Below, piece by piece: positions 489-54,395 of a DNA stretch of 64,000 nucleotides. Under the pieces are notes generated by a model. That model saw nothing but the letters and a program-made list of their open reading frames with translations, did not search any database and was not told where the DNA came from. The translations under genes and the position numbers were made by a program. The stretch's first letter is position 1. Each line of letters begins with the position of its first letter. The stretch is from assembly GCF_006345805.1 (NCBI RefSeq), contig NC_043009.1:14198001-14262000 (forward strand), written 5' to 3'. The stretch comes from Octopus sinensis. Taxonomy: Eukaryota.

Positions 489-742
489 CCACATCTTTGC
501 GAATGTTTCGATTTTCGTATTCTTAAAGAAAGCCATGACACCACTGTTTTTGACAGTGCCGTATTTGATTTTGGTTTGTTTTGGAAGATCAGAAATTGTT
601 TTGATGGGAGTATTGATCTTCTTCACTGTAAGGAAGGCAGCTAGATTAGCAGTGTACGAAGAGATGAGGATAAGGGCAAAAAACCACCAAGCGCTGGTAA
701 GGATACGTCCGGGCACTGTGTTTGGGGAAGCATCTGTGTTTC
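489..742 (-). CDS. iGluR-family subunit exon: end of pore loop, M3 (SYTANLAAF), start of S2
   Basis: Minus-strand acceptor tctaacAG at 744-743 and donor GTGAGT at 488-483. Translation: (G)[93 protein letters not shown] is the hallmark iGluR gate motif. Confidence 0.96.
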
Positions 743-972
743 CTGTTAGAGTAAAAGATGAAAATAATTATGGCAAGGATTTTGTGTAAATAAAAATACA
801 AATGTATTATAACTTTGGACAAACTAAACTGTTTCTTGCAGATATAATAAACTTTCTAAACAAGCCTTCCTTGCTGGATTTATACAGAAGTCATTAATTC
901 TGTATAAAAACAAAAATGTAGTGTCTCAAATAAAAAGCGGACTGTTTATGCAACCAAATCAAAAGGAATTTG

Positions 973-1044
973 TACATGTAGGTCTAGTGGTTAGAATTTC
1001 GCGCTCTCACCGTAGCGGCCTGGTTTCGATTCCCCACTTGGGAA
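973..1044 (+). pseudogene. tRNA-Glu(CTC)-derived pseudogene
   Basis: GGTCTAGTGGTTAGAATTTCGCGCTCTCACCGTAGCGGCCTGGTTTCGATTCCCC resembles tRNA-Glu with a CTC anticodon. The acceptor stem (TACATGT/CTTGGGA) and anticodon stem are mispaired. Confidence 0.7.
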
Positions 1045-1058
1045 ATAGTTATTTCGTC

Positions 1059-1434
1059 GCAAGCGTGGCTGTACGGTAAGAAGCTTGCTTGCCAACCCCA
1101 TGGTTCAGCATTCAGTCCAGTTGTATGGCACCTTCGGCAAGCCTTGGGCCGATTAAAGCCTTGTGAGTGGATTTGGTAGACGGAAACTAAAAGAAGCCTG
1201 TCGTGTATATGTGTGTGTGTGTGCATTAGTATAAATGTGTGTGTGTGTCTGTATTTGTCTCCCAACCATCGCTTGACAACCGATGCTGGTGTGTTTATGT
1301 CCTCGTAACTTAGCTGTTCGGCAAAAGAGGCCGATAGAATAAGCACTAGGCTTACACAGAATAAATCCTTGTGTCGATTTCTTCGACTAAAAACCCTTTA
1401 AGGTGGTACTTAAAAAATTAAGAATAAAAGAATA
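1059..1434 (+). mobile_element. tRNA-derived SINE, family 1
   Basis: GTGGCTGTACGGTAAG head, the GCCTTGTGAGTGGATTTGGTAGACGGAAACT body shared with at least six other copies in the window, and a short-repeat tail. Confidence 0.8.
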
Positions 1435-1541
1435 AATGATTGTTGAAGTGCAAAATAGACTAAGCGTGATTATAAAGTTATTCGTCTGTACTGAACTCCA
1501 CTCAAGCGGCCAGCGCTATTTGAGTATAGTTCAATAAAGTT

Positions 1542-1923
1542 GGAATCTTTTCGGTTTGAACGGCAGCTTTTCTAGCGGTGTCATATGAAATTGTCACCCA
1601 TAATTATGACCCTAGAATCGATCTATTGCATTTCAATCTCTTTTAGGGTTAGGGTTAGGGGTGGTGGGAAGGGTATCTGTTTTTTCTTCACAAATGTAAA
1701 TAAACCCAATTTGTTTCTTAAACGAGGGACATATTCATACGGCACAGAATGCTTTTTACCTCAATAGACGTCACTGATTGGTTGGAATTGCAGAAATTGA
1801 AGAAATAACAAATATCTTACAAACTATAGAATTTTCTCAATAAAGGCAAGAGAATAAGAAGTTTAACATTTTTTAATTATCTAGAAATTATGTTAAAAAC
1901 TGCTGTTCAAACCGAAAAGATCC
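1542..1923. mobile_element. MITE / non-autonomous DNA transposon with ~28-bp TIRs and internal (TTAGGG)3
   Basis: Left GGAATCTTTTCGGTTTGAACGGCAGC versus right revcomp GGATCTTTTCGGTTTGAACAGCAGT. Flanks TAAAGTT / AAAAGTT are a possible TSD. Confidence 0.75.
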
Positions 1924-2762
1924 AAAAGTTGAACATCAGACACGATAAATTAATGGAACGACTCAAATTGGAACTCTAATATTATCTGTTGACTTTAACG
2001 AAGCAATTGAGTTTTATCTTAATTTAGTCACAGAATTATCGTGTACACAATATTTCCTACCACTTTACTAATTAATCGAATGTACTGGCATACAGATACA
2101 TTTGAAGTTAATGTTTTCAAAATTAAAAAAAACAAAAACAACAGCCAGCACTAATAGACGTATAGTATATATTAGAGATGTTTGAATGAGTTAAAAACTG
2201 AGAGGAATGTGTATAGAAGGAAGAGGGGGTTGTAGGAATAAAATTGACAATCCTTAAAAATAAAAAAAAGAGGAAATTTCTTAAAAAATAGCCAAGAAAG
2301 GGATGGGATAGCTGAAAATTGTTTTACAAGTGTCATAAATGAAAAAAGAAGAATACACACACACACACACACACACAGTGTATATCGAGCGTGAACAGTT
2401 AGATCTACGACTGCTACTTTTGATTTTAGAGCTCTTCGTAGATTTTCACCATCCATTCTACTTCCAGTATAGTACTTAAGTTACAGCTAAGTAGTACAAC
2501 TAGTTATGATGTACAGAGCAAGTTTATCATTTCTCTTTCTCTCGCCCCCCCATATATATATATATGTATATATATATATAGAGAGAGGGTAGAGAGATAA
2601 ATACGTATCTAGCTAGCTATTTATCTATATAAAAAAACATACAAAATGGGACAAGAACGCAAAACATCCAGAAGACGATACAAAAAACACGACCGGGTCA
2701 TTCGAAGCCAATCATCTTCAGTCAAGAACCGGATCATCCTCGCAATTTCGGCTGATTAACAG

Positions 2763-2826
<64 letters not shown>

Positions 2827-2902
2827 TGATACATTGCCAACAGCCTTACGCGTTATACAGATTCAGGGATGCATATATTTATACATACAGAGATATACTT
2901 GC

Positions 2903-3206
2903 CTTGTAGTAAAGATCCAAAGATGAACCAGAAGCTCTCCCTGAACGAAATCGAAGGATAATCCTTTTTCTTACGCATGCCCAGTTTCTCCAGGAAGTAC
3001 AGTATTACACTGACGACAATAAATGCCCCGAATGTGCATATCCAAACAGGTGGCGAGAGGGGGTTGAGGAACTCAAAATATGATGTTTCTAGTTTAGTTT
3101 TCTTCATGATTACACTAATGTAGCGAGTCATAAAAGGTTTAGTGAAATCCACTGCCTCCTCGCGCTGTGAATTGATGCTGAGGGGCGATACTGTCATAGT
3201 GGCATT
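2903..3206 (-). CDS. iGluR-family subunit exon: end of S1, M1, M2 up to the Q/R-equivalent site
   Basis: Acceptor ttattttAG at 3208-3207. Translation: NATMTVSPLSINSQREEAVDFTKPFMTRYISVIMKK...FLNPLSPPVWICTFGAFIVVSVILYFLEK...SFRESFWFIFGSLLQ(G). The only frame-compatible donor is the non-canonical AAG|GCAAGT at 2902. Confidence 0.94.
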
Positions 3207-3382
3207 CTAAAATAAAGTGAAGAGATTAATCAATTAGTGAAGTGAGAAAAAGATGAGACAGAACGTGAGATATTTACATAGATAAACGAAGAGAGGGTTA
3301 AACAATGACAGAATAAATATTTGCTAGAAAGATTTGATAACCATTAAAATAACAAACCTGGAATAAAAAGATGTTAAATAAA

Positions 3383-3950
3383 TATTAGGGTTACCGAAAA
3401 GTAATCTCATATTTCATGCCATGAACTCAAATGAGCATAAAGCATATCGTTCATATATTTATTGATTCAAAATAAAAGGGCCTCGTTAGCAACAACATAC
3501 GGTCCACAAATCAGGTTTTTTAAAGAGAAAAGTTTTTAGTGTGCCTTTTCCACATCCACTATTCTTCTGAATGTCTTTCCTCTTGTAGACCAGAGTGGTG
3601 CTAGGTGTTAAGAGTAGAGAGTGGGAGCTCATGAAGTACCTGCTTCGATTTTCTGTACACTTACTCAATCTACTGCTTCATCAGCACTTGTAAAGTGAAC
3701 CAGGTATTATTAAGCTCTCAGAATAAGTACCCGATACTTTAACAGTTTTCACTGTGTCACTATACAGAGCATAGTTGATCTTCCTGATCGAAACCCGACT
3801 CAATGATCGAAATAACCGATTTTGCATTTGCTGAAGCCTCTTTGACATTTTCGAACACTAGCACCATCATATTACACATTTTCCTCTTGTACTTGTGGCG
3901 TTTTTGCTCATAGGAAATTAGTAAAGCATGCTATGCCGAATATGCACCTT
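3383..3950 (-). mobile_element. Decayed mariner-like transposon fragment
   Basis: The minus strand reads HIRHSMLY*F..KNAT, like the mariner N-terminal HTH region. A TIR-like TATTAGGGTTACCGAAAAGTAA lies at the left end. Many stops. Confidence 0.45.
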
Positions 3951-4006
3951 ACTTAGATTCTTGTCTCTCAAGAGCTATTAGATAGAGAATATATATATAT
4001 ATATAT

Positions 4007-4091
4007 ATCAAAACAAGCAACGAGGATATCCAAGGTAGAGTAGTACAATTGTTTTTACTCTACCTTGGATATCCTTGTTGTTTATTTCGAT
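4007..4091. repeat. ~36-bp inverted repeat (hairpin) from a Penelope-associated repeat
   Basis: ATCAAAACAAGCAACGAGGATATCCAAGGTAGAGTA and TACTCTACCTTGGATATCCTTGTTGTTTATTTCGAT are near-complementary. Related sequence occurs at 40620-40780. Confidence 0.7.
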
Positions 4092-4504
4092 TTATATGGA
4101 TAATACCATGCAAAATTCTGCTGCCTTTAACTTAAGTACCATATTCATCTGAACGCACACACACACACATATATATATATAAACTTTTATTAAAGTTGCG
4201 AAATCTTCACAAAACTGTTACTCAGAGTTACACGTTCCTATTCATTGGACAGTTATTAAGTATTCGAGTACTAATTATTTCAACCTTGTTTTGCATTCAT
4301 ATACTTGCTTGTGTGTGTGTTGTATGTGTGAGTATCATGAAATTAGGCAGCAATTTAGAAATGTACCACCCAACAGGAAAACTATAATTGTTATTAGAAC
4401 TCCTACAAGGTAAAGTGGTCTGATGCTCAGTCAACGCACATAATTGTCTACATACATACTGACAGTCAGCGTAAACGGACAATAGTGGCAGTCGTAATAC
4501 ACGT

Positions 4505-4572
4505 AAACCGTCGACGGTTTCGGCTTTAACTCCGCAGTCACTTCAGTAGAGTCAGCAAAACTCGTCAGATTC
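4505..4572 (-). ncRNA. Hammerhead ribozyme-like motif (minimal type I, palindromic stem III)
   Basis: Minus strand: CTGACGA-G...C-GAAAC-CGTCGACG-GTT. The core nucleotides are intact, stem II is partly paired (TGACTC/GAGTTA), and stem I is not evident. Confidence 0.5.
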
Positions 4573-5246
4573 CGGATAAGATCGCCACCAGTATATATGT
4601 CAACTCCATAGAAATCTGTGGATAATTTACCGAATCGTTAAAGTATATACAAATGATTAAATTAGGCATCGGTTTAGCAATGTATCAGAGCACTTTAGCT
4701 CTTATTTCTAGCATTTTAGGTGTTCTAACATAATGTCATATTTAATGATAATCATAATTTTCCTCTGTGTGTGTGTGTAATATTTTGGACTAATAGGTAT
4801 ACATACATACATACATACATACATACATACATACATACATACATACATACATGCATGCATACATCGTGTGTCCACATTAACGTATAATCATTAAATCTAT
4901 CCTGGTTGGATGACTTCAAAGACACCTTTGATTGTCTTGTTATACCAAAAGTATCGTTGGTATGATGTCAAAAATGTTTTCTTGAAAAACGACTTTTCTT
5001 TTCGGTACCTCTGATAGAATAGAATGTACAATACAAAATGTGCAGAAATACTGCATAGAGTACATAATCTATAGAATTAAACGATTTAACTGATCGATTG
5101 ATGCACTTAATTTTACTCTCTACAGTGAAGTCTTTCTGTGTTTGCATCAACGTACACCCTGTATTGAACTGACCCATCTCCAGACAATAAATCTACAGCA
5201 AATGTAGTCTCCAGCCGCAAGCGTTTACGATGGAGGGGTATTTGAT

Positions 5247-5482
5247 GTGAAGGCGGCGAGCTGGCAGAACCGTTAGCACGCCGGGTGAAATGAGTAGCCG
5301 TATTTCGTCTGCCGTTACGTTCTGAGTTCAAATTCCGCCTGGGTCGACTTTGCCTTTCATCCTTTCGGGGTCGATAAATTGAGTACCAGTTACTCACTGG
5401 GGTCGATGTAATCGACTTAATTCGTTTGTCTGTCCTTCTTTGTCCCCTCTGTGTTTAGTCCCTTGTGGGCAGTAAAGAAATA
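5247..5482 (+). mobile_element. tRNA-derived SINE, family 2, with TSD
   Basis: GGCGGCGAGCTGGCAGAA head, GAGTTCAAATTCC B-box, tail ...GTAAAGAAATA. TSD GGTATTTGAT at 5237-5246 and 5483-5492. Confidence 0.85.
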
Positions 5483-6702
5483 GGTATTTGATATTGAGTG
5501 GTATTGGAATGGAAATAGGCCCTTGTCATTCTAAAGGATCACAACCATGAGAGAATCAGTAACGAGTCAACGAGGGAATTTCTACGGAATCCATCACAAT
5601 GCTAGAAATAATAGCAGTTAAATATTCCTTAACTTCCTTCATTGCATTTTATATGACAAGACGTTTTAAAAATATAGTGATTATACTAAAAAAAAAAATG
5701 GATGCCCATTATCTGAATTCTATTGACCATAAGTCTCCCCGATTAGGGTTGACTTCTGGCTAAGCAATGATACAAACTAACGGGATACTCAAAGTGGTTT
5801 CTGCTAATGATAATTATAACCGCTAATCATTTGACCCTTTAGTTCCTACTTACAAATAGGTGGAGTGAACTATTGAGAATAAGTGTAATGCTAGTATCAA
5901 TATACAAACCGCGCTATCCTCTTGCTTGGTTGCACAGTATCCTATTCATTCGATTTATGAAACTCCCAATCGATAGGATTGTCTATTTCACTTTATCGTA
6001 TTCAGATATTTCTTCTTAAAGCACATCAATATACATCACACTTCGACTTTCATCAGTAATCTGTCTACTTAACAGTTTACAGATAAAAAATTATCTATTT
6101 GACAGTTTGCTAAGACAGCCTTTTAATCAAAATTATTTAACAATCAATGTTCAGTCAGTAAATTATGTCCTAGCTTCCTCTCTAGCTAGGATTCTGCACC
6201 TATAAACGAGTCAGATATTTCAAACTAACTCGATGCACCATCATTATTTCTGTCAATTACTCTGATATGTCGCACTCTGGGCTTTGTTTTAAATACTTTA
6301 TCTTGTCTTACTCTCTCTGAATTACAACCCATTGAAAACCTGGAAACGTTCAACAAGATATACTAATCTTATATTCTAGCATTAAAACTTTTTTTCTACT
6401 AACAAATGAGATGCAAATCCAGTCTATAAATGTATAAGTCGATTAAACTATAATCATATAACTAGGTATTTCCACGGTTATCTTGAAAGTTTTAAAATTA
6501 GCAGAAGTTTATGCAGAATTATCATAATTTCTCATGAAAGTTATCAGTTGTTGAAGCAATGGATGCTTTAGATGATGTGAAGTGAACGGGCTTGAGGAAA
6601 TGTTACTTACGATTTTCTTGAGAAACACCTGATCCACTCTTGTTTCTTTTCTATTAAGATTTTGCTATGAAAATTATTATACATGTTTTCTAAGAATAAT
6701 AT

Positions 6703-7116
6703 ATACTCTTTTACTCTTTTTACTCTTTTACTTGTTTCAGTCATTTGACTGCAGCCATGCTGGAGCACCGCCTTTAGTCGAGCAAATCGACCCGGGACTT
6801 ATTCTTTGTGAGCCCAGTACTTATTCTATCGGTCTCTTTTGCCGAACCGCTAAGTAACGGGGACGTAAACACACCAGCATCGGTTGTCAAGCAATGCTAG
6901 GGGGGACAAACACAGACACACAAACATATACATACACATACATACATATATATATACATATATACGACAGGCTTCTTTCAGTTTCCGTCTACGAAATCCA
7001 CTCACAAGGTATTGGTCGGCCCGAGGCTATAGCAGAAGACACTTGATGCCACGCGGTGGGACTGAACCCAGAACCATGTGGTTGGTAGGCAAGATACTTA
7101 CCACACAGCCACTCCT
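6703..7116 (-). mobile_element. tRNA-derived SINE, family 1
   Basis: Full-length copy with AGGAGTGGCTGTGTGGTAAG head and (TAAAAGAG)n tail; highly similar to 12984-13419 and 14546-14984. Confidence 0.88.
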
Positions 7117-8199
7117 GGAAAATATTAAGTAATCTTAACTCTAAAAGGAAATTGAACACATGATCTATCCATATCATTATTCTATTAGACTACATAAAAA
7201 CAAACGCTTTAACAAATCAGAATACGATACACTATGATACATGGGAAAAGTGGAGCTGACTGAACTTAAACCTACATTCGTAATGTATGAAGTACAATAG
7301 CTTGCCCTGCGAGTTATGAATCCTATCAAAATATATCACTTATATATATTAAATTTAGTTTTAAATATTGATTTTCCAGTCAATGAATGCTGAAACTATA
7401 ATAAGTTAATTCTTTGATTCAATTTCATAGTTTAACAGCCAATTGTTTACAGAGAGTATAAATGTTGTGTGTGTAACTGTTTAAGTATTCCATTTCATCC
7501 CATCGTTAAAGCATTACATACGTTGACAGTAACAGAATAATGTAATACACTTCAAATGAAAACAGTATTTTATCTGCACTGGAAGGTGGGAATTATGATA
7601 AACTCCCCAATCGCATTGTATCATATGATAAAGTAAATTAAGCACGCACTTGAAAGTGTTCACTCGGAACAAAGCTACATGGAATACGAAGAATTATTGT
7701 TTATCGTTAGATAAACAATAAATATATCATAGATACTTCTGGTCGTAAAACAGACTTTATCTTTTGACTTTCATGATATCATCAGTATTTTGACACACAT
7801 GTGAAACAGATATGTTTTACTTGATAAAACGTTTATCACAGAGGTGAGCACTATACAAGCGACATCCACAAGTTTCCATATCTGATAACCGTTTTACGTC
7901 TCTCAGCTGTTTTGTTTAACTAAGCATATCTATCATGGGTTTTCTTTGTTGCTATCACCGGGAGATAAAACTTACATACTTTATCAGAAATAGGAAACGA
8001 TACGATTTCTTTTGTTGACAAGCGCAGAAGATTCCGACAATTAGCATTGACGATCCAGGTTCACCTCCCAGACGAATCTGTTTATTTCACTTATGTCACT
8101 AATCTACAAAAGTCTCTCTCAATCGAATATGAACACCGCAGTAAAAGAACTGTTTGTTAAAATTTTAAAGACCACCACAACAAGGTAAATAACTCTAAG

Positions 8200-8720
8200 A
8201 ACTCTTTCTTCAACAGGCACAAGGCCTGACATTTTTTTGAGAAAGGACCTAGTCTATTACATCCGCCCCATGATGGAAGTCAACATCGATCTCAGTGGAG
8301 ATTGAACTCAGAACTAAACATTTCGTCCGATCCGCTAACTATTCTGCCAGTTTGCTGTATTAACAATAATTATAATAGCAAAATATTGTTCTACTATAGG
8401 TACAAGGCCCTATATCTTTTGGGGTGGGGGCTAGTCAATTAGATAGACCCTAGTACGCAACTGCTACTTAATTTGTCGACCTCGATGGATAAAATGTAAA
8501 GTCGACCTCGGCGGAATTTGAACTCAGAACGTAAAGACAGACGAAATACCTATTTCTTCACTACCCACAAGGAGCTAAACACAGAGAGGACAAACAAGGA
8601 CAGACAAACGGATTAAGTCGATTATATCGACTCCAACGACCCCGAAAGGTAAAGGCGACCTCGGCAGAATTTGAACTCAGAACGAAATACAGCTGAGCAT
8701 TTCGCCCGGCGTGCTAACGC
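8200..8720 (-). mobile_element. Cluster / nested copies of SINE family 2
   Basis: Repeated GTCGACCTCGGCGGAATTTGAACTCAGAAC blocks, with an internal tail|GGTATTTCGTC junction near 8550. Confidence 0.75.
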
Positions 8721-8751
8721 TTCTGCCAGCTTATCGCCTTATATCATAATC

Positions 8752-8824
<73 letters not shown>

Positions 8825-8825
8825 A

Positions 8826-8890
<65 letters not shown>

Positions 8891-9024
8891 TTAATTATTT
8901 ATGTCTCACTTTAACAACAAGAACATTAACAGCAATAAATACAACAATATTCATAAAGGAAATAAAAATACCGTAAAAATAAATGAAGCCAAAATATAAA
9001 AAAGCAAGATTATATCATAATTAC

Positions 9025-9228
9025 CCCAGCAAGGACTTCGCCAATCATTCCATTCCAATCTCCGTTGTCCATTTTAGCGCCAAAGTTTCCATCGCCAACG
9101 AGATACAAATCATATTCAAAGCCCAAGCGTTTCGATACGACATCCATTAAATCAACCGCGAAACCTTTAAACCGGTCGTTTCCGTATCGTTTTTCGTAAT
9201 CGTCTTTATACATAGTGAATGGCTTTTC
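9025..9228 (-). CDS. iGluR-family subunit exon: S1 ligand-binding lobe
   Basis: Acceptor tttttccAG, donor GTAATT, 204 nt, phase 0/0. Translation EKPFTMYKDDYEKRYGNDRFKGFAVDLMDVVSKRLGFEYDLYLVGDGNFGAKMDNGDWNGMIGEVLAG matches the iGluR S1 motifs (GF.VDL, DG.FG, WNGMIGE). Confidence 0.96.
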
Positions 9229-10679: not shown

Positions 10680-10799
10680 CAAGATAGAGACCACTTTCAC
10701 TCTGCGTCCCTTTAAAGGAAACATATATGTGATATTCGGATGGATTTTACGTTGATACACATGAAACTGTTTGGAAGTAGTAGAATTCCAGATTGCAAT
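10680..10799 (-). CDS. iGluR-family subunit exon: ATD-S1 linker (absent from the ORF track in this frame)
   Basis: Acceptor tattttcAG at 10801-10800, donor GTAAGT at 10679, 120 nt, phase 0/0. Translation IAIWNSTTSKQFHVYQRKIHPNITYMFPLKGRRVKVVSIL joins EKPF, like the iGluR 'IG.W...L.NRTL.V.TIL-E.P' segment. Confidence 0.9.
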
Positions 10800-11924: not shown

Positions 11925-12029
11925 TTTTTGTGTCATTTCCCCAAAAACTGCTGTAAAGTATAGATTAATACCTTTTCTTTTCCCTCTTTTGTTTAAGTGC
12001 ATACATCCAGTTTCCAAATGTTTCTTAAA
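11925..12029 (-). CDS. iGluR-family subunit exon: distal ATD
   Basis: Acceptor tggtttcAG, donor GTGAGT, 105 nt, phase 0/0. Translation FKKHLETGCMHLNKRGKRKGINLYFTAVFGEMTQK resembles the 'GLTG.I.F...G.R....' ATD segment. Confidence 0.85.
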
Positions 12030-14167: not shown

Positions 14168-14404
14168 CTTCTGTAGTTTCCGTTTAGTTTTCTCCCTCAT
14201 TTCCTCGATGTTAGGATATCGTTTCATCGATATAGATGTGTTCTTCAGCATTTCAACTATATCTGCAACCACTGCTCGGGGATAGTTTTCAGTGTTATTC
14301 AAGGTATCATCACTATGACCCTCTCTTAACGGTAAATAACCGAGAACAGTGAAATTGGTGTTCATGGCCACAAAGGAACGTAGGGTTGAGCTTATATAAC
14401 CGTC
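14168..14404 (-). CDS. iGluR-family subunit exon: ATD
   Basis: Acceptor ttctttctcAG at 14406-14405, donor AAG|GTAACG, 237 nt open frame, phase 0/0. Translation DGYISSTLRSFVAMNTNFTVLGYLPL...YPRAVVADIVEMLK...KLQK shows N.T.f and A...D.V ATD-like motifs. Confidence 0.82.
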
Positions 14405-16688: not shown

Positions 16689-17422
16689 TTGGGAAAATTT
16701 CGAACCTGGGTTCTCATTCCTAAGGTATTTTCGATGTTATTCTTCTCCTTCTTCTTCTTCTTATTATTATTCAGGTCACTGTTTGGAATCGAACTCAGAA
16801 TCTTGGGGTTAGTAGCCCGGCTCTCAACCACTACACCACATGCACGTGGGAAATTTTGGAGTGAATTTTGGGGGTTATAAATCTAATATTTTCCTATCCT
16901 TCCTTAATACCGGTTCCCATATGCTGCTCATAACTGCACTCGGTCTGCTTAGGAGGTTGTTGTGTCCTAGCATATGTGCTGCTTCTTTTAGTTTTCGTAT
17001 TTTCCAGTGGTGTTCTCTATCTATTATTTTAACTTCATCCTACAGGATGGGGGGGATCTCCATTTTTCCACACATGATCAGCTCTACCCGATTTATCAAT
17101 ATCTCCTCGTATCACAGATTTGCGTTGTTCCTCTACCCTTATTTTGAGGGGGCGGCGTGTTTCGCCTTTGCATAACCTGAGTACACGCTGTCTTTGGTCA
17201 CATTCTCTTCTATTGGTGCTTTTAATAGAAGATATCGGCGAAGTGTTGCATTAATTTTGAATACTGTGCTGATGTCATATGGGCCGCATATCTTTTGTAT
17301 CTTTTCAGAGAGGCCTTCTATATATGTGAAAGGCCTCTCCTGAAAGATACATATGGCGTAGTGGTTAAGAGCGCGGGTTAATAACCCCAAGATTCGAGTT
17401 CGATTCCAAGCAGTGACCTGAA

Positions 17423-17464
<42 letters not shown>

Positions 17465-17651
17465 AACAACTACTACAACTACTACTACTACTACTACTAC
17501 TATACTACTACTACTACTACTACTACTACAACAACTACTACAACTACTACTACTACTACTACTAATAATAATAATATTAATAATAATAACAACAACAACA
17601 ACATCGAAAAAATACCTTAAGAATGAGAACCCAGGTTCGAAATTTTCCCAA

Positions 17652-46819: not shown

Positions 46820-47993
46820 TAACACACGGATCAGATTTCAAAAGAGCCTCCTCTTGCTCTGCTCATGGCCTGCAAACTTGTGGTTACCGAACTGTAACAG
46901 TCCCGCACCACTTTTTCGTCAATTTTACTCCACATAAGTAAGAAGGGCTTTTTTCAGATACGCCACACTTGGGTATGAGACAGCTGAGATATCAGTCTTT
47001 AAGAGAGACCAAACGGAAAACTACATAGGCTGGATGTCTCTCTGGGCGTGAGGGACGCCAAAAGTTCTTATCTGCAAAACAGCAAAAATGCTCTTTGCAG
47101 CATTTTTGCGTTAAATTCGAGGTGTGGGCTGGGCCACCGTCCTGATTGAAGATATACCTGTTTCTAAATGTTTCATTTAACCAAGGTACTACGTTCTCTC
47201 TCAACATTTTGATGAAAAATGTGCTATTCACATTAACACCCTCGTAAATAAAGATGAAAGAAGACTTGATCCATAAGATGCTTCGGCATCCCACACCATA
47301 ACCCCAGCTCTTTTTTGACGACGAAAATGGGTTCGGTTCTTTTCCAGCAAATCTTACGCATCGCTATCATACAGTCAGTCGTTCTGTTTGTTCGTAACAA
47401 CCTCCAAAGTGAAGATCTTCTCGTCAATCTAAATGAAGATTTTGTGGGGCCCTTCCTCTCCGCTAACATCACTTTCCCATGTCGAGCCGTTTCTTCTTTG
47501 AAACTGCTGAAATTACTTTCCGGCTCGATTACTTTTTGTATGCCTTTAGCCTAAAATCTTCTTTAGCAATCCTGTGCACTGAAGATTTTGAAATATTAAG
47601 CACTTTTCCTATTTTTTCGCATGTATCGACGCGGATTCCAGTGAACTCTTTTTCTCATAGTATCAATCGCAAGTTTGATGCGAACAGTTCTTTAACGCCC
47701 TGGAATTTGCTTATTTGATGTCATGCCAGATTAACTGTAACGTTTCCAGACAATTATACACCGCCTTACAATAATCATTGAGTTGTTTTGCAACATCTTC
47801 GTTAGATTTTCCTGCTGAGTTTAATGCAACAATTTTATCACGTTTAACTGACAAAATTATTATAGTGACACAAAGCTATAGGCGCTTAAAGCTTATCACT
47901 TAATTAATGTGCAAAATCAAAAATATAACTGCTTTATCCAACAATTTTCAAGAAATTCTTAATCATAGATAAATTTTTCTGGGACACTCAGTA
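46820..47993 (-). mobile_element. Decayed Tc1/mariner (maT-like) transposon
   Basis: Frameshifted transposase: TDEKIF-like motif, VMVW, IFIYEGVNVNS, YIFNQDGGPAHTSNLTQ, FWRPSRP (WPPSSPDLNP-like). TIR-like end CTGGGACACTCAGTA at ~47980-47993; the left TIR was not recognised. Confidence 0.8.
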
Positions 47994-50219: not shown

Positions 50220-51457
<1,238 letters not shown>

Positions 51458-51467
51458 CATTATTATT

Positions 51468-51502
<35 letters not shown>

Positions 51503-51503
51503 T

Positions 51504-51886
51504 TAGTAGTTTTATTTTAATATCGTGCTTCCACTTCACTACCGAGCGCAGCTCTGTGTGCCTTGGGTGTGTGCTGTGTTTTGTTGTGATGCTCAGATGG
51601 TTAATGTATTGAAAGTGTTCTGCGTAGGATGTGTGCAGTGCCTAGTAGTACAATTTTCTGTATGTTATATGTGTTTGTAAGTCCTGGTGTTTTTGTTATG
51701 TATTGTTATGTGTTTTTGTTATGTATTTTTATCATGCCTAATGCACTTACTATGATAGAAATTGTTTCTGTTTTTAGATTCCACATTCGAGTTACCTCTA
51801 TTTCCAGGTCTTTGTATTTTGAAAGGTTCTCCCTTTTTTTAAGAGCCACGTTGTATTCTGCTGGTATTGATACATCAATTAGAAAG

Positions 51887-51890
<4 letters not shown>
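51504..51890 (-). mobile_element. Dong/R4-like 3' fragment, copy B (more diverged)
   Basis: Same 3' end and RLE C-terminus with substitutions and a small duplication; flanked by (TAA)n. Confidence 0.82.
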
Positions 51891-51959
<69 letters not shown>

Positions 51960-51962
<3 letters not shown>

Positions 51963-52810
51963 TAGTTTTATTTTTATAGCGTGCTTTCACTTCACTACCG
52001 AGCGCAGCTCTGTGTGCCTTGGGTATGTGCTGTGATTTGTTGTGATGCTCTGATGGTTATTGTATGGAAAGTGTTCTGCGTAGGATGTGTGCAGTGCCTA
52101 GTAGTGCAATTTTCTGTATGTTATATGTGTTTGTAAGTCCTGGTGTTTTTGTTATGTATTTGTCTGAATATCTTTTTATCATGCCTACTATGATAGGAAT
52201 TGTTTCTGTTTTCAGGTTCCACATTCTAGTTACCTCTATCTCCAGGTCTTTGTATTTTGAGAGTTTCTCCATTTCTTTTAGAGACACGTTGTCATCTGCC
52301 GGTATTGATACATCAATTAGAAAGCATTTTTTTTCTTCATGATCTCTGACAACTATATCTGGTCTGTTGGCCTTAATTTCTCTATCTGTGTGTATCGGCA
52401 TATCCCAGAGTATGGTTGCTTTCTCGTTTTCTGTGACCTTTTCTGGTGTGTGCCTATACCATCTTTTTTCTGTTGTTATTCCATAATGTTGGCATAGCTT
52501 CCAATGTATGTAGGTTCCAACTCTGTCATGTCTGTGAATATATTCCTTCTTAGCCAGGACTGGGCAGCTAGAGATAATATGATTTATTGTTTCTTGTCCA
52601 TCTCCACATATTCTGCAGTTACTTGTAATATTTCTTTTCATTACATGTTTTTGGTAATTTCTGGTGGGGAGGCTTTGGTCTTGTGCTGCAATTAAAAATC
52701 CCTCTGTTTCTGCTTTGAGTCCTGAGCTTCTCAAACATTGCTGGGATTTTTCTTTGTCTATTTTTTTTTGCGTTTAGTTTAGTGCAGTATTTACCATGAA
52801 GGGGTTTTTC

Positions 52811-54341: not shown

Positions 54342-54395
54342 TGGATCATGAAATATCCATTCATATGGATTAGACAGCATTGCCAAATTTCGAGC
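54342..54395 (-). CDS. iGluR-family subunit 54-nt ATD exon
   Basis: Strong acceptor tttctttattttcAG, donor CCA|GTAAGT, phase 0/0. Translation ARNLAMLSNPYEWIFHDP aligns with the kainate-receptor segment ALAMGMMTEYYHYIFTTL of the same length and joins DGY of the next exon. Confidence 0.8.

What the first reader, a model, noticed from the sequence alone, without database searches (positions are those of the whole stretch)
489..9228. Non-NMDA iGluR scaffold with a glycine/delta-type (non-glutamate) agonist-site signature
Seen: S1 has DGNFG and PLSINSQR, and S2 starts [13 protein letters not shown]. Aligned by eye to GluA2 (DGKYG, PLTITLVR, YGTLDSGSTKEFF), this gives Y450>F, T480>S, R485 kept, and G653>S, S654>G, T655>V. 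Established: T655 binds the glutamate gamma-carboxylate. S at 653 plus V at 655 is the pattern of glycine/D-serine-binding GluN1 (VKQSSV; DGKFG; PLTINNER) and of delta subunits (DSAV). However, S1 lacks the NMDA Cys loops, and M3 ([16 protein letters not shown]) is AMPA/kainate/delta-like. Inference: a molluscan receptor possibly gated by glycine, D-serine, alanine or GABA rather than glutamate.
Basis: partly seen in the sequence, partly recalled or inferred. Interest (0 to 1): 0.72.

Follow-up and report, generated by a model that had tools for sequence, protein, structure and literature searches.

The report
Zeta-class receptor with glycine-type site
This octopus gene is GluZ1, a named but functionally untested 'Zeta' glutamate-receptor relative of molluscs and ribbon worms, and its conserved binding pocket lacks the glutamate-gripping residues, so it is likely an excitatory channel opened by glycine-like amino acids (or GABA) instead of glutamate.

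Summary
Three spliced exons (9228-9025, 3206-2903, 742-489, minus strand) encode S1, M1-M3 and the start of S2 of an intact 803-aa iGluR, with F450, S480, R485, S653-G654-V655 (GluA2 numbering). The next exon, 12.5 kb left of the window, adds W704, D705 and F732, completing the glycine/D-serine-type pattern. This pocket is near-invariant in 56 mollusc and nemertean orthologues and absent from 95 AMPA/kainate proteins. Trees without the ligand-site columns reject nesting in AMPA or kainate (AU p about 0.009); the gene lies outside deuterostome delta, and a sister relation to delta is unresolved. It is not a new class: the O. bimaculoides orthologue XP_014768777 is GluZ1 of the 'Zeta' class of Zeng et al. 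2021, and Aplysia GluR8 is the same gene (earlier filed as AMPA). No recording or ligand prediction for Zeta turned up in eight literature searches. Best reading: a cation-channel subunit likely gated by glycine/alanine/serine, with GABA the main rival. A linked paralogue has a genome-encoded arginine at the Q/R site. The ligand is inferred, not shown.

The parts
54342..54395 (-). Coding exon, amino-terminal domain (about residues 217-234 of P0115)
   Evidence: tblastn; AG/GT limits read
14168..14404 (-). Coding exon, amino-terminal domain (about residues 235-313)
   Evidence: AG...GT
11925..12029 (-). Coding exon, amino-terminal domain (about residues 314-348)
10680..10799 (-). Coding exon, ATD-S1 linker (about residues 349-388)
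9025..9228 (-). Exon: first part of S1 with E402 (9228-9226) and F450 (9084-9082); no NMDA-type Cys loops
   Evidence: splice to 3206 seen in 4 of 4 laid contigs
2903..3206 (-). Exon: end of S1 (P478, S480, R485, unusual Y499), M1, M2 up to the Q/R site (Q586, CAA at 2906-2904)
743..2902 (-). GC-AG intron directly after the Q/R-site codon
   Evidence: donor AG|GCAAGT; joint confirmed by contig loose ends
489..742 (-). Exon: pore loop (G587-N588-T-D590), M3 SYTANLAAF gate, start of S2 with helix-F motif S653-G654-V655 (545-537)

Best explanation
The locus encodes GluZ1, an intact, spliced Zeta-class (Aplysia GluR8-type) iGluR subunit conserved across molluscs and nemerteans, whose pocket keeps the backbone-binding residues but lacks the glutamate side-chain contacts, so it likely binds a small neutral amino acid (glycine, alanine or D/L-serine) and likely opens a cation channel. 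Shown: gene structure, splicing, residues, conservation, a position outside AMPA and kainate. [quoted passage not shown] Cleft closure would pull the canonical SYTANLAAF gate. Q at the Q/R site and D590 predict an excitatory, probably Ca-permeable, polyamine-blocked current. Whether it works alone or needs a partner (for example the linked paralogue with a genomic R at the Q/R site) is untested.
For: Conservation among 56 GluZ1-type proteins: S653 53 (T 3), V/I655 56, W704 55, D705 55, F732 50, R485 56, S480 56; among 95 AMPA/kainate proteins G653 94, T655 93, W704 0, Y732 91. S653 + hydrophobic 655 + F732 is the stated glycine/D-serine rule, and the placozoan receptor with S653/I655/F732 is gated by Gly, Ser, Ala, Val and not Glu, switching to Glu when all three are reverted (PMC12226733). 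Rat GluA2 GST>SSV responds best to alanine (glycine 84%, glutamate 15%); S653 plus W704 raised glycine and lowered glutamate potency 5-fold in an amphioxus receptor; placozoan 19383 (SEA, WD mutant, hinge F) is best gated by Gly/D-Ser/Ala (PMC13648236). D705 is kept, so the leak-channel type is not expected (abstract). The S2 exon's best PDB matches are GluD1 ligand-binding domains. Full ATD-LBD-TMD architecture, AlphaFold mean pLDDT 85, iGluR fold.
Against: No recording exists for any Zeta receptor that I found. The S/x/hydrophobic + WD pocket also occurs in the GABA-preferring starfish GluD (SSL, WD), and placozoan 19383 passes GABA currents nearly as large as glycine's. The same paper warns that motifs mispredict: a Nematostella receptor with SQP answered to glutamate (small currents), and a Y>S mutant became glutamate-selective. 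G654 lacks the hydroxyl whose loss (S713A) silenced starfish GluD, and Y499 replaces a glycine whose change (G567S) altered that receptor. The 56 proteins include near-duplicates and are one clade, so they are not independent evidence about the ligand.
Confidence: 0.5

Rival explanations
1. GluZ1 is an excitatory GABA receptor that works like invertebrate delta receptors: GABA's carboxylate held by R485, its amine by D705 and E402.
For: E402, S653, hydrophobic 655, W704 and D705 match GABA-gated starfish GluD (P0257; PMC10861852). Zeta as sister of delta is not rejected (AU p 0.25). The S2 exon scores best on GluD1.
Against: F732 (50 of 56) differs from Y732 of the three delta proteins counted and belongs to the glycine rule. 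Polar S480 is kept in 56 of 56, which suits an alpha-amine, although Rosano et al. found that this position does not decide GABA versus D-serine. Zeta lies outside the delta clade (100/99).
Confidence: 0.2
2. GluZ1 is not a stand-alone channel but a co-agonist or structural subunit: it binds ambient glycine/D-serine in a heteromer (with the R-pore paralogue or a glutamate-binding subunit), or signals without current like vertebrate delta.
For: G654 and Y499 sit at positions whose change silenced or altered starfish GluD. The filter is atypical (Q-G-N/S-T-D instead of Q-Q-G-C-D; G587 in 56 of 56). Spiralian AMPA subunits were obligate heteromers (PMC13520880). The paralogue has R586 in 12 of 12 and lies on the same contig.
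Against: The M3 gate is canonical and the LBD/TMD core is 67-73% identical across oyster, sea slug and chiton. Most tested invertebrate AKDF and epsilon receptors work as homomers. Kainate receptors also lack the 654 hydroxyl (A654).
Confidence: 0.2
3. It is a glutamate (or aspartate) receptor with a divergent pocket, as databases imply ('kainate 2-like') and as the AMPA filing of Aplysia GluR8 assumed.
For: [quoted passage not shown]
Against: T655 and G653 are lost and W704 gained in every or nearly every orthologue; nesting in AMPA or kainate is rejected; starfish GluD also scores almost equally on kainate and delta structures, so the best-hit label is weak.
Confidence: 0.1

Closest known systems
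Zeta class (GluZ) of AKDF iGluRs, Zeng et al. 2021 (PMC8437780); GluZ1_Obi = XP_014768777.1
   Same: Direct orthologue: XP_014768777.1 is P0001, 100% identical (rounded) over the 406-residue core.
   Different: Zeng et al. call the class mollusc-only and sister of Phi, and analyse ligand residues for GluF only in the passages read. Here the clade also holds nemertean and Owenia proteins; the sister relation to Phi was not testable.
Aplysia californica GluR8 (NP_001191669) and GluR6
   Same: GluR8 is the orthologue (70% core identity, same S-G-V, WD, F732); GluR6 is the R-pore paralogue.
   Different: Greer et al. 2017 filed GluR8 as AMPA and GluR6 as orphan; the AMPA placement is rejected here.
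Invertebrate delta receptors (Acanthaster GluD, GABA-gated; Rosano et al. 2024)
   Same: E402, R485, S653, hydrophobic 655, W704, D705; non-NMDA scaffold.
   Different: Separate clade; 38% core identity; G654, S480, F450, F732 and a Q-G-N pore instead of S654, V480, Y450, Y732 and Q-Q-G. The oyster 'CraGluD' they tested (XM_011429946, no currents) is another gene than the oyster orthologue XP_011426148.
Glycine-gated epsilon/AKDF homomers (Trichoplax GluE1alphaA, Trichoplax 19383, amphioxus GluE1)
   Same: S653 + hydrophobic 655 + F732 and/or WD; non-NMDA, non-glutamate gating.
   Different: Other lineages; none has the S-G-V/I motif in the passages read; no verified epsilon sequence was in my trees.
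NMDA GluN1 glycine site
   Same: S-x-V and WD (octopus GluN1 has S-A-V and WD); F at 450 and 732 is also GluN1-like in mammals (recalled, no call).
   Different: No Cys loops, AKDF-type M2/M3, Q at the pore tip; octopus has its own GluN1 on contig C19.

Membership tests
iGluR superfamily | ATD + S1/S2 clamshell + M1-M2-M3-M4 with SYTANLAAF | tested here: met
   Pfam PF01094, PF10613, PF00060 all above cut-off; model and fold search
Zeta (GluZ) class | Orthology to a listed GluZ protein | tested here: met
   XP_014768777.1 = GluZ1_Obi = P0001; exon 3206-2904 100% identical to it
Zeta (GluZ) class | Sister group of Phi | tested here: inconclusive
   No verified Phi sequence obtained; two octopus rows guessed to be GluF went with AMPA/kainate on long branches
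Zeta (GluZ) class | Restricted to molluscs | tested here: not met
   Lineus and Tubulanus proteins join GluZ1 at 100/97; further nemertean and Owenia proteins join the wider clade at 91/90. This widens the class rather than excluding the gene
AMPA receptors | Inside the AMPA clade | tested here: not met
   AU p 0.0087 and 4e-41
AMPA receptors | G653-S-T655, L/I704-E705, Y732 | tested here: not met
   S-G-V, W-D, F
Kainate receptors | Inside the kainate clade | tested here: not met
   AU p 0.0086
Delta receptors | Inside the clade of vertebrate, tunicate, amphioxus, hemichordate and echinoderm GluD | tested here: not met
   Delta rows form their own clade, 100/99, without Zeta
Delta receptors | Sister group to delta (protostome co-orthologue) | tested here: inconclusive
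   AU p 0.25; FastTree 0.858 for it, IQ-TREE unresolved
Delta receptors | S/T653, hydrophobic 655, W704-D705 pocket | tested here: met
NMDA receptors | Cys-containing S1 loops, N at the pore tip, GluN clade | tested here: not met
   0 Cys in S1, Q586; separate GluN1 gene
Epsilon receptors | Inside the epsilon clade | tested here: inconclusive
   Only three hemichordate proteins, probably epsilon by their SQP/SQT motif (inference); union with Zeta neither recovered nor rejected (AU p 0.11)
Glycine/D-serine-gated iGluRs (functional kind) | Current gated by glycine, alanine or serine and not glutamate | not testable with these tools
   needs electrophysiology

The most novel reading that the evidence does not exclude
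Zeta is a spiralian-wide class of excitatory glycine/alanine/D-serine (or GABA) receptors, independent of NMDA and delta, in which Q-pore GluZ1 pairs with its linked paralogue carrying a genome-encoded arginine at the Q/R site, giving molluscan neurons a non-glutamate excitatory channel whose calcium permeability is set by subunit mix without RNA editing.
Probability: 0.2. Interest if true: 0.72.

Novelty: new member of a known kind. Interest (0 to 1): 0.42.

Why it matters
Non-glutamate iGluRs are recorded from ctenophores, placozoans, a cnidarian, acoels and deuterostomes, but I found no recording from a protostome non-NMDA receptor of this kind; the one oyster candidate tried gave no current and is a different gene. 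GluZ1 is strongly conserved, full-length and transcribed, so it is a ready test of excitatory glycine or GABA signalling in octopus and Aplysia circuits. It also means that Aplysia GluR8 should not be counted as an AMPA subunit in expression studies.

Tried and rejected
(1) Oyster CraGluD as orthologue: rejected; its accession and its motifs, read by eye from the cDNA in the supplement (S-N-L, T-D, K-P before helix F), differ from oyster XP_011426148. (2) IR25a/IR8a-type co-receptor: rejected; octopus IR25a-like gene is on C7 and falls elsewhere (the label IR25a is from recalled motifs). (3) Pseudogene or mis-splice: rejected; open frame and spliced contigs. (4) Long-branch or convergence artefact: the tree was rebuilt without 23 ligand-site columns, without 8 long rows and with 17 redundant rows thinned (54 of 79 rows); result unchanged. 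(5) Zeta as sister of AMPA+kainate: not rejected (p 0.079), so the deep order is open. (6) A search for Phi references with the Ptychodera protein returned only two hemichordate orthologues and then vertebrate AMPA proteins. (7) Motif search in the 2018 alignment was uninformative because the rows are cut. (8) Q/R editing: no other letters in exon 3206-2903 in 4 of 4 contigs; contigs drop rare variants, so this is no evidence of absence. Exon 742-489 was not examined in reads, so recoding of the helix-F motif is open. No run was on record as RNA, and tissue or level cannot be told. (9) Earlier scan findings: none by sequence or words.
Full report
OBSERVATION. The three exons 9228-9025, 3206-2903 and 742-489 join in one frame and equal residues 389-642 of an annotated 803-aa octopus protein, P0115 (CAI9731618 / XP_029644262). 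The intron after the pore codon is GC-AG. In 4 of 4 laid runs from 4 studies, one contig covers the middle exon and runs on into both neighbours, so both joints are real (the tool only guesses that these runs are RNA).

WHOLE GENE. The window is G000:C13:14198001-14262000. Four more exons lie in the window (54395-54342, 14404-14168, 12029-11925, 10799-10680), four 5' exons lie at C13:14420488-14286345 and three 3' exons at C13:14185497-14170749: 14 coding exons over about 250 kb, with no stop seen. The first 3' exon reads AFFWDTTV and PKGFG, that is W704, D705, V708, F732. Pfam finds ATD, LBD and channel. The AlphaFold model (50-row alignment) has mean pLDDT 85 and matches AMPA/kainate structures; this confirms the fold and says nothing about the ligand.

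CONSERVATION. Searches returned orthologues from cephalopods, bivalves, gastropods, a chiton and nemerteans, and a related group with the annelid Owenia. Counted on one alignment of 173 proteins of at least 440 aa (shorter hits and most cluster members left out, one hit lacking S2 dropped from the counts): in 56 GluZ1-type proteins R485 56, S480 56, S653 53 (T 3), G654 51 (A 5), V or I655 56, W704 55, D705 55 (1 gap each), F732 50, F450 52, Q586 50, G587 56, D/E590 56. In the 95 remaining AMPA/kainate-type proteins G653 94, T655 93, E705 90, Y732 91, W704 0. The 56 include near-duplicates and form one clade. Core identity to P0115: oyster 73%, Aplysia GluR8 70%, chiton 67%, Lineus 57%, and 38-41% to AMPA, kainate and delta references.

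PHYLOGENY. A FastTree of 198 of 203 rows separated this clade (0.998) from AMPA/kainate (0.998). IQ-TREE with LG+C20 on 79 rows, rooted on octopus GluN1 built from exons, gave GluZ1 100/98, the wider clade 91/99, delta 98/99 (with long octopus rows inside) and AMPA+kainate(+two long rows) 100/95, with the base open. Without the 23 ligand-site columns, 8 long rows and 17 redundant rows the groups held: GluZ1 100/97, wider clade 91/90, delta 100/99, AMPA+kainate 99/98. AU tests: with AMPA p 0.0087, with kainate p 0.0086, GluZ1 alone with AMPA p 4e-41; with delta p 0.25, with three hemichordate proteins p 0.11, with AMPA+kainate together p 0.079. So nesting in AMPA or kainate is rejected and the deep order is open. 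Limits: a single long outgroup, no verified Phi, epsilon or non-bilaterian sequence, and group labels that I set from names, motifs and the first tree.

WHAT IS KNOWN. Zeng et al. 2021 (PMC8437780; passages; supplement search and part 3 of 3; figures not seen) define a mollusc-only 'Zeta' class, sister of Phi, and list XP_014768777.1 as GluZ1_Obi. That accession is P0001, the O. bimaculoides orthologue. Their ligand analysis, in the passages read, covers GluF only. Greer et al. 2017 (PMC5225553; passages) and 2019 (PMC6532900; passages) treat Aplysia GluR8 as AMPA and measured it in sensory neurons. Ramos-Vicente et al. 2018 (PMC6307864; passages; supplement table part 1 of 2; alignment rows cut) give the 653/655 rule; their 14 Lottia genes do not include the Zeta paralogue LOTGIDRAFT_111488 found here. 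Singh et al. 2025 (PMC12226733; passages; supplement search; tree figures not seen) include XP_014768777 in their data and describe an uncharacterised 'AKDF group II' of molluscs, annelids, cephalochordates and Ptychodera; I could not see whether this gene is in it. Rosano et al. 2024 (PMC10861852; parts 1-3 of 8; supplement part 2 of 4) show GABA gating of invertebrate delta receptors; P0257 matches their starfish numbering at all 19 positions checked; their oyster CraGluD is another gene and gave no current. A squid atlas mentions spiralian 'Phi-like' iGluRs and glycinergic neurons (PMC12240821; passages). Eight searches found no recording and no ligand prediction for GluZ/GluR8. Moroz 2021 and Stroebel and Paoletti 2021, cited by these papers, were not read, and figure alignments and unseen supplements could hold such a prediction.

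MECHANISM. Shown: residues, gate, architecture, splicing. Established: T655 binds the glutamate side chain; S653 + hydrophobic 655 + F732 marks glycine/D-serine sites, and reverting these three switched a placozoan receptor to glutamate. Wang et al. 2026 (PMC13648236; parts 1-6 of 9) made GluA2 alanine/glycine-preferring with GST>SSV and found that W704 lowers glutamate potency when combined with S653. Inferred: GluZ1 binds a small neutral amino acid, closes its cleft and opens a cation pore; Q586 and D590 suggest Ca permeability and polyamine block. Against: the same pocket type is GABA-preferring in starfish GluD; an SQP receptor answered to glutamate; the authors warn that prediction from motifs is unreliable; G654 and Y499 fall at positions that silenced or altered starfish GluD. 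My odds: Gly/Ala/Ser-gated 0.5, GABA-gated 0.2, partner-dependent or silent 0.2, glutamate/aspartate 0.1.

PARALOGUE. A second Zeta gene lies 1.9 Mb away on C13 (L002, L082, L083), orthologous to Aplysia GluR6. All 12 proteins of this group have R at the Q/R site, none has an acidic residue at 590, and they read S-Q-I/T, W-D, Y732; the octopus R is genomic. Adjacent locus tags in Elysia (RRG08_006863/5/7) and equal contig lengths in other species suggest that the pair is linked elsewhere too (inference). A genome-encoded pore arginine that linearises a heteromer is known from an acoel AMPA receptor (PMC13520880; passages). A GluZ1/paralogue heteromer is a hypothesis only.

VERDICT. Real, well supported at sequence level, and already named as a class; the ligand is the open and testable part. 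Interest 0.42.

Noticed in passing
G000:C13:16.147-16.152 Mb (L002, L082, L083): Linked Zeta paralogue (Aplysia GluR6 type) with a genome-encoded R at the Q/R site and no acidic residue at 590; R in 12 of 12 proteins of the group.
   Followed up: partly
window 743-2902: GC-AG intron right after the Q/R-site codon; joint confirmed in 4 of 4 contigs.
   Followed up: yes
G000:C24:1.60-1.68 Mb (L077-L081): Cluster of divergent iGluR-like genes whose helix-F region resembles the oyster 'CraGluD' by eye; they group with the IR25a-like gene inside delta (99/88, long branches). The 'protostome delta' genes may be IR relatives, which could explain the lack of currents.
   Followed up: partly
G000:C6:116.33 and 116.48 Mb (L084, L049, L060): Two further divergent iGluR genes with S653 and D705 (S-N-T, F-D; S-D-L, N-D); possibly other GluZ members of Zeng's list; position unresolved.
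   Followed up: partly
P0199, P0263 (Owenia): Annelid members of the wider clade have T-Y-C and F-D in the pocket and G-F/I-G-P-E in the pore, a very unusual site.
   Followed up: no
window 3122-3120: Y499 (W in Lineus) replaces a glycine found in most other iGluRs aligned, near the LBD hinge.
   Followed up: partly
window 51051-52773 (-): Two or three fragments of a non-LTR retrotransposon C-terminus (zinc knuckle and endonuclease-like motif, judged by eye).
   Followed up: no
window 46995-47550 (-) and 17038-17504 (-): Tc1/mariner-like transposase fragment and a GIY-YIG-like fragment, judged by eye.
   Followed up: no
window 978-1045 (+): tRNA-like sequence (A- and B-box-like) in the GC-AG intron, probably a tRNA-derived SINE head; judged by eye.
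   Followed up: no
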